Notes: generated by a model not told the origin, from the sequence alone. Positions 31,830-37,699 are shown, numbered from the stretch's first letter. The stretch is 64,000 nucleotides of DNA from the human T2T-CHM13v2.0 reference genome, Homo sapiens (GCF_009914755.1 NC_060930.1); one strand, 5' to 3'. Numbers and translations: made by a program.

Positions 31830-33090
31830 TTACTTACCACAGTTGGTAGGAATGTAAAATGGTACAACCACTTTGCAAAACAGTTCAGTAGTTTGGTAAA
31901 AACATAAACATACACCTACCATATGATCCAGTTTTCCACCCCCAGGTATCCATCCAAGAGAAAAGAGGAGTTCGAAACCGGTTTGGCCAACATGGTGAAA
32001 CCTCAGCTCTACTAAATATACAAAAATTGGCCGGGCGTGGTGGTGCACACCTGTATTCTCAGCTACTCAGAAGGCTGAGGCGGGAGAATCACTTGAATGC
32101 AGGAGGCGGAGGTTGCAGTGAGCTGAGATCGCACCACTGCACTCCAGCCTGGGCAAAGAAGTGAGACTCTATCAAAAAAACAAACAACAACAACAACAAC
32201 AAAAACTAAACTAAAACGATAGAGACATATACAGAGTAAAAAGTTAGTCCCTCCCTTTTCCTTCTCCCCATGCCCACTATCCTCCTTGCCTCTCCAGCAG
32301 TAGTCACTGTTAACAGTTTGATGTGTGGTCTCTGGCATTTGCCTTATGTGTATACTATATGTACTTGTACATACATGCCTAGGCAAGTAGATTGGAGTTG
32401 GTAAACAATTTATTTCTCTAAATCAAATCCCAGAAAGCAGAGTTTGTGTTTATGTTATCTGATTGCACTCTGATTTTCTTTCTTACAGGAAAGCATTCTT
32501 TAAGGCTTAGGAAACTATAGGAATTCTTTGAGGCTTTTCTTTTTTTACCTAGTTTATTTAACTTATTTTTATTAGTAATTTGAATAAAGGTTTTCCACCC
32601 CCATGCAAAGACTTGAACGCAAATATTCATAGCAATTTTATTTGTAATTGCTAAAAAGCAGAAACTCCCAAATGTCCATCAACAGGTGACAAATTGTGTA
32701 TAGCCATATAGTAAATACTACTCAGCAATATAAAGGAATGAACAATTGATGTACACACAACATGGATGTATCTCAAAATTATTCTGCATGAAAAAAGCTA
32801 CACAAAAATTACATACTGTATGTTTCCATTTATATGAAATTCTAGAAAATATAACTTATAGTGACAGAGAGGAGATCAGTGGTTGGCTGGGGACTGCAGA
32901 AGAAGAGACCAGAATAGCCTTCAAAAATGAGGGCTAAATAAGGACATATTCATATATGCCCAAGTGAGAGAATCTGTAACCAGCAGAACTGCACTACATA
33001 GTATGCTAAAGATGCTCTTCATGCCAAAGGGAAATGACTCCATATGGAAAGTAAAATGTGCAGAAAAGACTCAAGACAACCAAAAATGGA
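31830..33090 (+). mobile_element. Old L1M fragments, interrupted by the duplicated segment
   Basis: aatgtaaaatggtacaaccactttg...ccatatgatccag...caaagacttg...caaatgtccatcaacagg, typical L1M 3' sequence. Confidence 0.7.
31966..32591 (+). repeat. Inverted duplication, derived copy (5'-truncated Alu + unique 3' flank)
   Basis: Reverse complement of 37073-37699; ORFs 32063..32386(-) and 37279..37602(+) have identical translations. Confidence 0.97.
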
Positions 33091-36000
33091 TCTATGTAAT
33101 TGAAGAGCCATATTCTGAGCACCCCAGAGCAAGCCAGCCTCCCCTACCTCATCACACCACTGTTACAGCCAGCAGCACCAGCACCACCTCTAATGCCCCG
33201 TCCATCGCCACCACCAGGAATCAGTGTGGCCTAATATCCAGGGATGCCCTGGACCTGTCCCTTCTATTGGCAATAAATACACCACTTGGAGGTAGTAGGG
33301 ATCCATGTAAGGCAGTCTCACAGGACTGACTTCTTATAGAAATCTGAGAGGGTCTTCTTGGCATGGAATGTGCAGCTCCTAGTGCTGGTAGACTGGCTCA
33401 CCATGCATGCCTGCCTTCTGTGGGTAGGTGGGAAACAGAAGAGCCAAGAAGGACACACTTCTTGGGCACTTTTTGCCACCCTGATGCTGACTGGGACTTC
33501 CACCCATCCCTAACTCTATCAGTTGGAGGTCAGCACAAACCAGGGCATCTCAAATGGGAGGGCATTTCCCAGTTGGCTCTTAAAGGTTTAAGTCTGTGAT
33601 CACTGCTTTATCCTCAAAACCCTGATGGCCAGATTTTCTTCAGCAAAGGCTGCCTTGCAATCAGAATCACTGCCACCATGATTAAGGGCCATTCTACAGA
33701 AGCTGAGGCAGGAAGCAAGGCAGAAATGAACCCCACCATAAAATTCTGCCTGCGCTTTCTCTGGTATCTAAAGGATAGGACTCTTGATTCCATTTTATTC
33801 TTTCCTTTCTTTCTTCTCTTCCTTTAATTTCCTTTTCCCCTCTATTTCCTTCTTCCTTCTTCCCCTTCTCCCTTCCTTTTTTACTTATTCCTTCTTCTTT
33901 ACCTTCCTTTTTAAAATTTACGTTTTAGGCATTTTCTGGTTTTTGGTATTTGTCTACCATGGGCATTGTGTTGTATAAAAATCCAGTGATTCAAGATCTT
34001 GATGTTTGCCCTGTTTTGTTGATAGTTTTATAGAACATTTTAAAGACACATTCGATGAGAACAGCTATTTTCTACCACCAACTCACTGCTTTTTAAAATT
34101 AGCAAAAACCATTAAGATCACAAAACACACAGTTTGAAACATAGCATCCAAAAAGACTTTGTCTTTTCTTTTTTTAACGTACATTTCAGAGTAAACTAAA
34201 TGTGAAGTATTCAATGACAAGAAGTCAGGAAATGGGATCTGATCAGCTTAGGAATGAATAGATTTCGTACTAACCTAACACAATTCTAACAACTTCCCAG
34301 GAACCTCAAGGTCAAGGCTGAGCTGTACAGAACTGAGAGAAGAGGAGGTGTTATCTCCTCTCAGGGGCAAGGGAGACAGACTAGAGTCACACAGTGAGTC
34401 CTCTCCATTGTTCCCATGGCTCAGGGTGGCCTTCAAATGTTGAAACCTCTTTTGGTAACTCCTGGGGGGATTATTCCCAGCCAGTCTCTCATGTATTTGA
34501 AGAAACTAAATGTGTTCACCTTTGTGAATGAAACTAGGTTTACAGGATGGATAAGAGTGGATACATAAAAATGCATAAAATTATTTGGCTGTCGTGCAGC
34601 TGACTTCACACAATATGTATCTGTGCACATTTTACACTGACACCCCTAAACTGCCTTTTCAGGGCCTATCCACTCTCATCCCTACCTCCCAACTACTATT
34701 CTCTGGAGGGAGTAATGAGCTAAGTTGGAGGGTGAGGGTAGGCAATGGGTAGAACAATCTTTTATGTATGGGAACTCTAAATTGTTATTATGTATCTTAG
34801 TAATATCATAAGGCTGAAACTGTCTACCTTAGGTTCTAAGGAATCTGAGGATCATTTCTAACATCTTAGAAATGAGATGTTAATAAGCTAACCCTCATGG
34901 GGAGTAATACTGGTTACTGTTTATTAAACACTTAGTACGTGTCAGGCACCTGATACATACTCTTTATGGTTGTCACAACAACCTTGCAAGTTGGGTATCT
35001 TTCCCAATTTACAGATGTGGAAATTGAGACTGCAGACTCAAGAGTGGTGCTATCAGGTGAGACTTGAACTACAATGAATCAGTGTTTTTCAGCCTTCAGA
35101 CTGAAGGGTTTCAGAGCTTGGATAGCGGAGAATGATCTCTGCGGATCTCAAGCCCCTTTCTTGTGCTGTGGTATCTCAGGATACCACAAAGCCAATAGTG
35201 GGTGATTTTATTTGCATCCTAGGTAGCCCTGAGGCCACAGGACAGTCCCATTCAATTAAGGTGATAAAAGGACTTTACAAACAGAACTATTGCTGCAGTT
35301 TGGTTATGCTCCACTTCCCGCACATGGCTCTTGTGTTTTATTCAGAGTCTGGCCAAATGGTAACTCCTTACATATCTCCCCATCATCTCAAGGGCCTAGT
35401 TACCAAAGAAGAGGGAAGCATCTGCTTGTGGCATCCTGGCCTGTGCTGCAGTCATTCACCATCGCCTGACCTGCTCTATTTTTTCTTTACAGCACGTATT
35501 ACCCAGACTTTCACTGGCCTGTTAATTTGTGTATTGGCTGGGTCCTCCACTAAAATCTAAGCTCCAGTTAGCCCCAATTCCAAGAACAATGCCTGGCACA
35601 TAATGGGCACTTAATATTTATTGAATGAATTAATCAAATACTCATTCATCTGAACTTTTACAATACTCACGATATCCATTTCATATACTTCGCATTCCTA
35701 GTTATATTTTCATACACATGATCTGGTTTTCAGTGTGTTTTGAAAGAGCCTTAACATTCTTAACTCCCAGTTAATTCTCAGGGTCAACTGGATCCAATTT
35801 TATTTTTTAAATTTCTTTTTGGAAGTTTTCTTCCAAAGAACACAGAAAAAAAATTGCCTATATATTTTTAAAGTAGAATCAAATTTATTCTCTCTTGCAA
35901 TTAACATGAATAGAATGAACCCTTTTATAAGTCTATGATACATTACGGGATCTTAGTGATCTTATTTTTTTCTATAACTTAAAACATTTTTCTATTTAGT

Positions 36001-36257
36001 CATCCTAGGAATTATCACTACTTATCAATAATTCCAACCTATACTAAAAAATGTGAAAAGGTAAGAATACTGGTATTGCCTAGAAGGACAATGCAAGAGT
36101 CAAATAAGCCACCACGATTGCCTCATCTTCTACTTTTCTCATTTCTTTACCAAACTATTGCATCATGCTTCAAGAAGATACACAAGAAGTATGGAGACAC
36201 CATCTTTATGGACTTTTTAAAGCTTTCATTGAACACAGTTGAGGGTTCAGAATTTTT

Positions 36258-36414
36258 CAGGTTCTTAAACTTTAATGTTCGTAAGTCACCTGGGGATCTT
36301 GTTAACGTACAGGTTCTCATTCAATTGGTCTAGATGAGCTTTGAGTTTGCATTTCTAACAAGCTCCCAGGTGATACTGAAGCTGCTGGGCTAAAGGTCAC
36401 ATTTTGAGTAGCAA
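36258..36414. mobile_element. MER5-type hAT relic
   Basis: tcacctggggatcttgttaa...gcatttctaacaagctcccaggtgat...ttttgagtagca. Confidence 0.7.
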
Positions 36415-37072
36415 CAATGAGACCATGCACAGGCTATTGAAATTGGTTTAGATTATAATTAAAGGATTGATTTTTTGATGTGTTTCTATTACAAAAATAC
36501 CAAGTCCTTGCTTACTTTCTAAAAATCAACCAAGTATTTCATTATCTAGCTATCTGATGAAATTCAAACTTGTTTATACTTATTATATAACCATTAATTT
36601 CAAAGCATTTAGTAATTAGTGGGCTATACAAACCCACTTAGATAGTATCCATATTGCTCCAAACAGAAATAAAATCTCTGGGCTACTTGTGTTTTACCTT
36701 ATATTTCCTGTACCTGAATATAGTATTCTGAAAGTGGCCTGCTTAGGGAAGGGTACAAAGAGGTTTGTGCCTTCTTGATCAGGATAGTATACTTCTATTA
36801 CAGTTATCATAAGATTGCATTCAGACACTACATCAGCTAGTCCTTGCCAACAAACATCACCAGGTTATTTTCAAGTTAACTACTGCTGAAATCAAGTCTT
36901 ACATCCTAAACTTCTATAACACATTTTAAAATTTTAAATGCAATTTAAAATTTTTATCCCTATTGAATATTTCTTCATTTCAGCCTCACCATCACATGCT
37001 GACAAGATTAGTCCAAATTCCTAAATATAGACATTTTTTCCCTCCAGGTTTAGTATATTTTAAAATTTTGGC

Positions 37073-37699
37073 ACCTTTATTCAGATTACTAATAAAAATA
37101 AGTTAAATAAACTAGGTAAAAAAAGAAAAGCCTCAAAGAATTCCTATAGTTTCCTAAGCCTTAAAGAATGCTTTCCTGTAAGAAAGAAAATCAGAGTGCA
37201 ATCAGATAACATAAAGCACAAACTCTGCTTTCTGGGATTTGATTTAGAGAAATAAATTGTTTACCAACTCCAATCTACTTGCCTAGGCATGTATGTACAA
37301 GTACATATAGTATACACATAAGGCAAATGCCAGAGACCACACATCAAACTGTTAACAGTGACTACTGCTGGAGAGGCAAGGAGGATAGTGGGCATGGGGA
37401 GAAGGAAAAGGGAGGGACTAACTTTTTACTCTGTATATGTCTCTATCGTTTTAGTTTAGTTTTTGTTGTTGTTGTTGTTGTTTGTTTTTTTGATAGAGTC
37501 TCACTTCTTTGCCCAGGCTGGAGTGCAGTGGTGCGATCTCAGCTCACTGCAACCTCCGCCTCCTGCATTCAAGTGATTCTCCCGCCTCAGCCTTCTGAGT
37601 AGCTGAGAATACAGGTGTGCACCACCACGCCCGGCCAATTTTTGTATATTTAGTAGAGCTGAGGTTTCACCATGTTGGCCAAGCCGGTTTCGAACTCCT
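37073..37699 (-). repeat. Inverted duplication, source copy
   Basis: The Alu here is complete (to ~37770), whereas the other copy truncates it. Confidence 0.95.

What the first reader, a model, noticed from the sequence alone, without database searches (positions are those of the whole stretch)
31966..37699. Near-perfect 626-bp inverted duplication flanking 4.5 kb of ELOVL2 intron 1
Seen: 31966-32591 is the reverse complement of 37073-37699. By eye I find only 2 substitutions and one 1-bp indel (~99.5%), far closer than ordinary Alu pairs. About 390 bp of the unit is non-Alu flank. The left copy truncates the Alu and interrupts an old L1M, so it is the derived copy. Inference: the event is very young (possibly human-specific or polymorphic) or is homogenised by gene conversion. 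It is a textbook substrate for recurrent NAHR inversion of the 4481-bp spacer (32592-37072). It would also form a >600-bp almost perfect dsRNA stem in ELOVL2 pre-mRNA (ADAR hyper-editing target), about 1.7 kb from the candidate liver enhancer.
Basis: partly seen in the sequence, partly recalled or inferred. Interest (0 to 1): 0.8.

Follow-up and report, generated by a model that had tools for sequence, protein, structure and literature searches.

The report
Young inverted duplication in ELOVL2 intron
A 626-base piece of ELOVL2 intron 1 was copied backwards into an old L1 element 4.5 kb away by a cut-and-patch DNA repair event, leaving a real, near-perfect inverted repeat that could flip the DNA between its arms or fold the pre-mRNA, although neither effect has been shown.

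Summary
31966-32591 is the reverse complement of 37073-37699, with 2 substitutions and one 1-base indel. It is the only one of 208 repeat pairs in the window at 95% identity or more; the next best is 88%. The non-Alu part has no third copy in this assembly.

The left arm is the derived copy. It splits an L1M-type repeat whose two halves adjoin in 38 of 58 other copies examined. The right arm carries the rest of the Alu.

The junctions show no target-site duplication and no poly(A). They show 1-3 base microhomologies, loss of about 10 target bases, and a second 14-base patch copied from 34 bases upstream. This is the signature of templated break repair or serial template switching, not retrotransposition.

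Divergence of 0.32% suggests roughly 2-3 My, with a range of about 0.2 to 12 My. Both substitutions lie within 17 bases of the arm ends. That fits either error-prone synthesis at the junctions or an older repeat homogenised by gene conversion.

The NAHR inversion and ADAR editing readings are structurally sound but untested. The arms share a 466-base perfect tract and form 624 predicted pairs. The inversion catalogues I could search list nothing here. No function is shown. I rate this a new member of a known kind, of modest interest.

The parts
31838..31965 (+). Left half of the interrupted L1M-type repeat (the target of the insertion)
   Evidence: The query 31830-31965 found 1135 candidates in the own genome, of which 40 were scored at 76-86% identity. 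Coverage by other copies starts at about 31838.
31931..31944 (+). Source of the 14-base secondary patch (GTTTTCCACCCCCA), 34 bases upstream of the insertion point
   Evidence: This 14-mer occurs exactly twice in the 64-kb window, against 0 expected in 100 shuffles.
31966..32591 (+). Left arm, the derived inverted copy (626 bases). 31966 to about 32219 is the 3' two thirds of an Alu plus its A-rich tail. 32220-32591 is non-repeat intron sequence.
   Evidence: Both of its junctions are novel, with L1M on each side. The derived T at 31982 is judged against C in 15 of 17 other Alus of the window.
32590..32603 (+). 14-base templated patch. It overlaps the arm end by GT (32590-32591) and the resumed L1M by CCA (32601-32603).
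   Evidence: L1M homology resumes at 32601.
32601..32894 (+). Right half of the interrupted L1M-type repeat, colinear with the left half
   Evidence: The query 32592-32880 found 1815 candidates, of which 40 were scored. In 38 of 58 other loci examined, the two halves lie on the same strand within 10-182 bases of each other.
32592..37072 (.). 4481-base spacer that an arm-to-arm exchange would invert. It holds the rest of the L1M and the annotated SIAH3 processed pseudogene (33143-33680, +).
   Evidence: The pseudogene comes from the hub's annotation table and was not tested here.
37073..37699 (-). Right arm, the source copy (627 bases), read on the ELOVL2-sense strand
   Evidence: It is continuous with the Alu 5' end outside the arm.
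37700..37770 (-). 5' end of the source Alu, outside the duplicated unit. Imperfect direct repeats flank the whole Alu at 37771-37784 and 37441-37454.
   Evidence: The direct repeats match at 10 of 14 bases, as expected of an old Alu's target-site duplication. Only the 3' one is present in the left arm (32211-32224).
30321..30321 (+). Context: rs953413 in the validated FOXA/HNF4alpha liver enhancer of ELOVL2 intron 1, 1645 bases from the left arm. The allele is A in this assembly.
   Evidence: A guide oligo from PMC7033636 supplement file 4 matches 30322-30340. The sequence was read.

Best explanation
This is a genuine small inverted intrachromosomal duplication with no demonstrated function.

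Origin. A 626-base stretch of ELOVL2 intron 1 (37073-37699) was copied in reverse orientation into a break in an L1M element 4.5 kb away. The stretch holds the 3' two thirds of an old Alu plus about 372 bases of unique sequence. The copying used microhomology-mediated templated repair, either serial template switching of the MMBIR/FoSTeS kind or a polymerase-driven patch at a double-strand break.

Three switches can be read. First, L1M to the source at 37699, sharing 1 base. Second, the source at 37073 back to L1M 34 bases upstream of the break, sharing GT and copying 14 bases. Third, on to the downstream L1M, sharing CCA and skipping about 10 target bases.

Shown: the structure, the direction (the left arm is derived), the junction anatomy, and the absence of retrotransposition marks. 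Inferred: the repair pathway, and the age of about 2-3 My (range 0.2-12 My) if gene conversion is ignored.

Consequences are by-products and are predicted, not shown. (a) The arms share a 466-base perfect tract in inverted orientation, so exchange between them would invert 32592-37072. I put the chance that both orientations segregate in humans at about 25%. (b) In ELOVL2 pre-mRNA (minus strand) the arms can pair into a 624-bp duplex around a 4.5-kb loop. Nuclear ADARs would very probably edit this wherever the intron is transcribed (about 70%). An effect on ELOVL2 output is unlikely (under 10%).
For: Arms and differences. Uniqueness: 1 of 208 pairs at 95% or more, and only two copies of the non-Alu part in the assembly.

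Direction: both flanks of the left arm belong to one repeat family, and they are adjacent and colinear in 38 of 58 other loci. In the alignment of the 26 of those 38 that passed a stricter filter, family homology stops at 31965/6 and resumes at 32601, with about 10 family bases missing between. The right arm continues into the Alu 5' end with flanking direct repeats. The left arm carries the derived T at 31982, against C in 15 of 17 other Alus.

Mechanism: there is no target-site duplication and no A-tail after 32591. Microhomologies are A, GT and CCA. The exact 14-mer is repeated 34 bases upstream, with 2 matches against 0 expected. Passages of PMC4352052 name microhomology, templated insertions and raised point-mutation frequency as the signature of such junctions. 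Passages of PMC5110952 describe class 2 templated insertions with no target-site duplication or poly(A), and with microdeletion and microhomology.

Both substitutions lie 17 and 12 bases from the arm ends (P about 0.003, a post hoc test), which fits error-prone synthesis next to the switches.

RNA duplex: cofold energy is -1196.8 kcal/mol with 624 intermolecular pairs. Both arms lie in intron 1 of the minus-strand gene, according to the hub's annotation table.
Against: The empty site is inferred from paralogous L1M copies that are only 70-85% identical, not from an orthologous or allelic empty site. The roughly 10-base deletion and the CCA microhomology are therefore estimates.

A DNA template cannot be told from an RNA template (ELOVL2 pre-mRNA).

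Clustering of the two substitutions at the arm ends is equally what gene conversion of an older repeat would leave, so the age could be much greater than the divergence suggests. That test rests on two events and was made after seeing the data.

No outgroup exists here for 32580/37084 or for the indel, because the non-Alu part has no other homologue.

No inversion at this place was found in the supplements of three inversion studies. Those searches used hg19/hg38 coordinates that I worked out from recalled positions. Two of 14 files of one paper were not searched, and one file of another was cut when stored.
Confidence: 0.75

Rival explanations
1. The duplication is old (tens of millions of years). 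Its interior is kept near-identical by recurrent gene conversion between the arms, and only the last few bases at each end escape.
For: Both substitutions lie within 17 and 12 bases of the arm ends. The 598 bases between them differ only by one indel, although they hold 8 CpGs and A/CAA/T runs. Close inverted repeats are known to convert each other (established knowledge, recalled).
Against: Two events are few. Error-prone synthesis at template switches leaves the same pattern (PMC4352052 passages). The one substitution that can be polarised is derived in the new copy. The 14-base patch is still identical to its source, although that is weak evidence at this length.
Confidence: 0.3
2. The arms were made by an inversion with staggered breaks, which leaves an inverted copy of the staggered stretch at the two breakpoints. 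The spacer was later flipped back by exchange between the arms.
For: After re-inversion this route gives exactly the arrangement seen, with two novel junctions at the left arm and two ancestral ones at the right arm (my own reasoning). It would imply that the locus has already toggled.
Against: It needs two events where one suffices. In this haplotype the L1M halves are colinear across the left arm, so the simple one-step version is not met. The 14-base patch is copied in direct orientation from 34 bases beside the junction, which is most simply explained if that junction formed where it now lies.
Confidence: 0.08
3. The patch was reverse-transcribed from ELOVL2 pre-mRNA and used to mend a break, as in a class 2 templated sequence insertion derived from RNA.
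For: The source strand is the sense strand of the intron (and the hub's annotation table). Passages of PMC5110952 report that such patches come from RNA and show microdeletion and microhomology without a target-site duplication or poly(A).
Against: The donor lies only 4.5 kb away in cis. A second patch comes from 34 bases away. Both fit local DNA template switching better. Nothing in the sequence marks an RNA intermediate.
Confidence: 0.12
4. The copy is an L1-mediated retro-insertion of a polyadenylated intron fragment (class 1 templated insertion).
For: An AATAAA sits at 32583-32588, near the 3' end of the copy, and the flank after the copy begins with TTTT.
Against: There is no A-tail and no target-site duplication. 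The copy ends 3 bases after the signal, rather than the 10-30 stated for class 1. Target bases are lost rather than duplicated.
Confidence: 0.02
5. The left arm is an assembly artefact.
For: None found. I had no reads to inspect.
Against: The arms differ at three places. The left arm has two specific junctions, with microhomology and a templated patch, inside a repeat that is otherwise continuous. A collapse or mis-join would not produce that.
Confidence: 0.02

Closest known systems
Inverted-repeat-mediated (NAHR) polymorphic inversions of the human genome (HsInv series; long-read inversion catalogues)
   Same: Two highly identical inverted repeats flank a few kilobases. Validated cases have repeats from 140 bases to 134 kb (PMC13629690 passages). 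Also, 132 of 183 sequence-resolved balanced inversions have flanking inverted repeats of 200 bases or more (bioRxiv 10.1101/2021.12.20.472354 passages).
   Different: Both orientations have not been observed here. The locus was not found in the supplements I could search. At 626 bases the arms fall below the 1-kb floor of the segmental-duplication track used to pick candidates.
Class 2 templated sequence insertions (DNA break patched with a copy of a distant sequence) and MMBIR/FoSTeS template-switch junctions
   Same: The donor is intact. There is no target-site duplication and no poly(A). There is microhomology, a microdeletion, an extra short templated insert, and point changes next to the junctions (features as given).
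   Different: The described class 2 insertions come from distant regions, often on other chromosomes, and are said to derive from RNA. This donor is 4.5 kb away in cis and inverted, which is more typical of a replication-fork template switch. Whether it is polymorphic is unknown.
Long, highly paired intramolecular dsRNAs of the human genome (dsRNAscan set)
   Same: The duplex exceeds 300 bp and 96% pairing, and it spans less than 10 kb. Only 2,018 of 5,134,754 predictions meet these limits, and 88% of those are intergenic (PMC11838218 section 10 and passages). A genic example like this one therefore belongs to a rare class.
   Different: Most members of that class form between inverted LINEs, whereas this one is part Alu and part unique sequence. 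It is intronic, so it should be removed in the nucleus. Editing was not tested.
Segmental duplications as conventionally defined
   Same: An intrachromosomal, high-identity copy containing non-repeat sequence.
   Different: It is only 626 bases, below the usual 1-kb threshold, so it escapes that annotation.

Membership tests
IR-mediated (NAHR) inversion locus | Two inverted repeats of high identity flanking the segment | tested here: met
   626/627-base arms at 99.5% identity with a 4481-base spacer.
IR-mediated (NAHR) inversion locus | An uninterrupted identity tract long enough for homologous exchange (a few hundred bases; the threshold is recalled, not taken from a call) | tested here: met
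   The longest perfect tract is 466 bases, 31983-32448.
IR-mediated (NAHR) inversion locus | Both orientations observed among individuals or species | not testable with these tools
   Only one human assembly is held and no other primate. The catalogue supplements searched show no entry. No paper holds ELOVL2 together with inversion terms.
Segmental duplication (track definition: 1 kb or more, 90% or more, not only common repeats) | Length of at least 1 kb | tested here: not met
   The arms are 626 bases. The definition is as quoted in PMC13629690.
Segmental duplication (track definition: 1 kb or more, 90% or more, not only common repeats) | Identity of at least 90%, and not made of transposable elements alone | tested here: met
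   Identity is 99.5%. The 367 non-Alu bases tested have no other copy in the assembly and no homology to the fetched repeat loci.
Class 2 templated insertion / microhomology-mediated template switch | No target-site duplication and no poly(A) tail | tested here: met
   Junction read-outs. The flanks do not repeat each other next to the insert. The 14-mer lies 34 bases away and on one side only.
Class 2 templated insertion / microhomology-mediated template switch | Microhomology and microdeletion at the junctions, with the donor left intact | tested here: met
   Microhomologies are A, GT and CCA. About 10 family bases are missing between 31965 and 32601, judged from 26 aligned paralogous copies, so this is an estimate. 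The donor is present at 37073-37699.
Class 2 templated insertion / microhomology-mediated template switch | Presence/absence polymorphism in humans (needed for the name TSIP) | not testable with these tools
   Only one haplotype is available.
Class 1 templated insertion (L1 ORF2-mediated) | Target-site duplication of 5 bases or more, poly(A) tail, and cleavage 10-30 bases after a poly(A) signal | tested here: not met
   There is no duplication at the junctions and no A-tail. AATAAA at 32583-32588 lies 3 bases from the end of the copy. The criteria are from PMC5110952.
ADAR-edited long intramolecular dsRNA | Both arms in one transcript, long and highly paired | tested here: met
   Both arms lie in ELOVL2 intron 1 (hub's annotation table). 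There are 624 intermolecular pairs at -1196.8 kcal/mol.
ADAR-edited long intramolecular dsRNA | A-to-I (A-to-G) clusters observed in RNA | not testable with these tools
   No RNA data are held. The 3 papers listed for ELOVL2 with A-to-I terms were seen as listing only, and by their titles none concerns this site.
Breakpoint duplications of a staggered-break inversion | Each copy keeps one ancestral junction | tested here: not met
   Both junctions of the left arm are novel, and the L1M is colinear across it. The arrangement is compatible only if a later re-inversion is added.

The most novel reading that the evidence does not exclude
The left arm is a human-lineage insertion whose arms still exchange. 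The 4.5-kb spacer would then toggle between orientations in living populations. The resulting 624-bp intronic duplex would be hyper-edited in liver and testis. One of these states, inversion or duplex, would measurably alter processing or output of ELOVL2 and contribute to the fatty-acid association signal now assigned to rs953413, 1.6 kb away.
Probability: 0.04. Interest if true: 0.65.

Novelty: new member of a known kind. Interest (0 to 1): 0.3.

Why it matters
The locus is a clean, fully readable example of how a small inverted repeat is born. It shows three template switches, a secondary 14-base patch, and point changes confined to the junction-proximal bases.

At 626 bases it is below the size at which duplications are catalogued. 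Repeats of this kind are therefore invisible to the lists from which inversion candidates are drawn.

It lies in a gene with a strong fatty-acid GWAS signal and 1.6 kb from its validated liver enhancer. A presence/absence or orientation polymorphism would thus be worth knowing when that signal is fine-mapped.

None of this makes it functionally important by itself. The most likely outcome of the tests is a neutral intronic variant.

Tried and rejected
Retrotransposition was rejected on the junctions. Assembly artefact was rejected on junction detail.

I looked for an internal outgroup for the second substitution and the indel. The non-Alu part has no third copy in the assembly and no real homology to 58 repeat loci or to the rest of the window, so polarity stays open.

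Literature. ELOVL2 with 'inversion' and 'inverted repeats' gave 0 papers. ELOVL2 with 'inversion polymorphism' gave 0 papers. ELOVL2 with A-to-I editing terms gave 3 papers, seen as listing only, none about this site by title.

ELOVL2 and the coordinate prefixes were absent from the following:
- the main texts of PMC3961182 and PMC6748972;
- 12 of 14 supplement files of PMC6748972 (files 13 and 14 were not searched);
- 2 supplement files of PMC12229492;
- 2 supplement files of PMC13629690 (file 1 was cut when stored).

The hg19/hg38 coordinates used for these look-ups were derived from recalled positions of ELOVL2 and rs953413, so these negatives are weak.

The Cell 2022 inversion paper is not held. 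I read passages of its preprint instead; its tables were not seen. Earlier findings of this scan were not open.

No protein, structure or RNA-family tools were used, because nothing in the question called for them.

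
Full report
**Observation**

The repeat finder gives arms 31966-32451/37214-37699 and 32449-32591/37073-37215, with 4481 bases between the inner ends. A local alignment of the left arm with the reverse complement of the right arm gives 626 aligned columns. There are two mismatches: 31982 T against C at 37683, and 32580 T against C at 37084, read on the left-arm strand. 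There is one extra base in the right arm, at 37216. The perfect tracts are 16, 466, 131 and 11 bases.

In a self-comparison of the whole window, 208 repeat pairs are 150 bases or longer. Only this pair reaches 95% identity, and the next best is 88.0%. A search of the window's own assembly with 367 non-Alu bases of the unit (32225-32591) found the two arms and nothing else (2 candidates, both scored).

**Which copy is derived**

The two flanks of the left arm belong to one abundant old repeat of the L1M type. The left flank drew 1135 first-look candidates and the right flank 1815, with 40 of each scored at 71-86% identity. Among the 58 other loci fetched, 38 carry matches to both flanks on the same strand, 10-182 bases apart. 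So in uninterrupted copies the two flanks are neighbours and colinear.

The 26 of those 38 that passed a stricter filter were aligned with the window's flanks. Family homology runs up to 31965/31966 and resumes at 32601, and coverage by other copies confirms 32601. About 10 family bases are absent between these points.

The right arm, by contrast, continues into the 5' end of its Alu (37700-37770). That Alu as a whole is flanked by imperfect direct repeats at 37771-37784 and 37441-37454, matching at 10 of 14 bases. Only the 3' one is carried in the left arm, at 32211-32224.

At the one difference that can be polarised, 15 of 17 other Alus of the window have the right arm's C (one has T and one has A). 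The left arm's T at 31982 is therefore derived.

**How it arose**

Read on the + strand, the junctions are as follows.
- The L1M ends at ...GAAAAG. The arm begins with A at 31966, a base that both the L1M and the source could supply.
- The arm ends ...AATAAAGGT at 32591, where the source goes on with different bases.
- From 32590 to 32603 lies GTTTTCCACCCCCA, an exact second copy of 31931-31944, which sits 34 bases upstream of the insertion point. This 14-mer occurs only at these two places in the 64 kb, against 0 expected in 100 shuffles.
- The patch overlaps the arm end by GT and the resumed L1M by CCA.

There is no target-site duplication and no A-tail. The AATAAA at 32583-32588 lies only 3 bases from the end of the copy. 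Target bases are lost, not duplicated.

These features do not meet the criteria given for L1-mediated (class 1) templated insertions. They do meet those given for class 2 break-patch insertions: no target-site duplication or poly(A), with microdeletion and microhomology (PMC5110952 passages). They also match the stated signature of microhomology-mediated replicative junctions, namely microhomology, templated insertions and raised point-mutation frequency (PMC4352052 passages).

My reading is therefore a single repair or replication episode with three template switches. The pathway is inferred. The anatomy is shown, with one caveat: the empty site is reconstructed from paralogous copies, not from an orthologue.

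**An alternative route**

I considered an inversion with staggered breaks followed by re-inversion through the arms. On paper this yields the same final arrangement. It needs two events. It also explains less well why the 14-base patch is a direct copy of sequence 34 bases beside the junction. I give it about 8%.

**Age**

Two substitutions in 626 bases give 0.32% (Poisson 95% interval 0.04-1.15%). Scaled to a human-chimpanzee divergence of 1.2% over 6.5 My, this is about 1.7 My (0.2-6.3 My). At 0.5e-9 per base per year per lineage, it is about 3.2 My (0.4-11.5 My). The calibration values are recalled general knowledge.

Both substitutions lie within 17 and 12 bases of the two ends of the arm. 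The chance of that for two random sites is about 0.003, but the test was made after seeing the data.

Two explanations fit.
- The changes were made by error-prone synthesis next to the template switches. In that case the copy may be younger than the estimate, and all derived states should be in the left arm.
- The repeat is older, and its interior is homogenised by gene conversion that does not reach the ends.

The interior of 598 bases differs by a single indel, although it holds CpGs and mononucleotide and CAA runs, which fits either view. I could not decide between them. The non-Alu part has no other homologue to serve as an outgroup, and no other primate or human haplotype is held. I put the older-plus-conversion reading at about 30%.

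**Consequences at the DNA level**

The arms are inverted, 4.5 kb apart, and share a 466-base perfect tract, so they qualify structurally as a substrate for exchange that would invert 32592-37072.

Validated human inversions are known with flanking repeats from 140 bases to 134 kb (PMC13629690 passages). In one long-read survey, 132 of 183 sequence-resolved balanced inversions had flanking inverted repeats of 200 bases or more (preprint 10.1101/2021.12.20.472354 passages). The same survey reports that evidence of recurrence is enriched for longer flanking repeats, so a 626-base pair is at the weak end.

In this assembly the L1M halves are colinear across the left arm, so the spacer is in the orientation in which the insertion was made.

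I found no record of an inversion here. Searches for ELOVL2 with inversion terms returned no papers. ELOVL2 and the expected coordinate prefixes were absent from the supplements of three inversion studies. The caveats on these look-ups apply: the coordinates were recalled and some files were unsearched or cut.

An inversion would be balanced and purely intronic. The spacer holds no annotated exon or RefSeq functional element, according to the hub's annotation table.

**Consequences at the RNA level**

ELOVL2 is on the minus strand and both arms lie in intron 1, so the pre-mRNA carries both. Folded together, the two arms form 624 intermolecular pairs at -1196.8 kcal/mol, against about -160 kcal/mol for each arm alone. 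The loop would be 4481 nt.

In a genome-wide prediction using 10-kb windows, only 2,018 of 5,134,754 predicted duplexes were both longer than 300 bp and more than 96% paired, and 88% of those were intergenic (PMC11838218, section 10 and passages). A genic example such as this one is therefore uncommon.

Editing by nuclear ADARs is likely wherever the intron is transcribed, but it was not testable here. Because the duplex is removed with the intron, an effect on the mRNA or on cytoplasmic sensors is unlikely.

**Neighbourhood**

rs953413 is the variant shown experimentally to control a conserved FOXA/HNF4alpha enhancer in ELOVL2 intron 1 (PMC7033636, passages). It maps to window position 30321 through a guide oligo from that paper's supplement (sequence read). 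Proximity alone is no evidence of interaction.

**Verdict**

The direction of copying and the 'young or converted' alternative are supported. The inversion and editing consequences are reasonable predictions that remain untested.

What the second look adds is the mode of origin, a microhomology-mediated templated insertion with a second short patch, and the end-clustered substitutions.

This is a new, previously undescribed member of known kinds: a small inverted duplication, a templated insertion, and a potential inversion substrate. It is of modest interest unless population or primate data show that it toggles or is human-specific.

Noticed in passing
window 30220-30320: Just left of rs953413 (30321) the sequence holds forkhead-like motifs and a direct-repeat nuclear-receptor-like motif. 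This is consistent with the FOXA/HNF4alpha enhancer described in PMC7033636. This assembly carries the A allele at the SNP. The motif reading is by eye and from recalled motif shapes.
   Followed up: partly
window 33143-33680 (+): The spacer contains the annotated SIAH3 processed pseudogene (hub's annotation table), antisense to ELOVL2. An inversion of the spacer would place it in the sense orientation of the intron. Not examined further.
   Followed up: no
window 32583-32588: A poly(A) signal hexamer lies 3 bases from the end of the duplicated unit, and correspondingly in the source on the ELOVL2-sense strand. It looks like a coincidence in AT-rich sequence, since no A-tail follows.
   Followed up: yes
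window 33780-33910: A pyrimidine-rich (CT/TTCC-type) low-complexity stretch of about 130 bases lies in the spacer, seen while reading. Not analysed.
   Followed up: no
L030 and L031 (own assembly, contig 13, about 1.4 Mb apart): Two L1M-type loci fetched as background gave identical match coordinates and identities and identical rows in the alignment. This suggests they lie in a large recent duplication on that chromosome.
   Followed up: no
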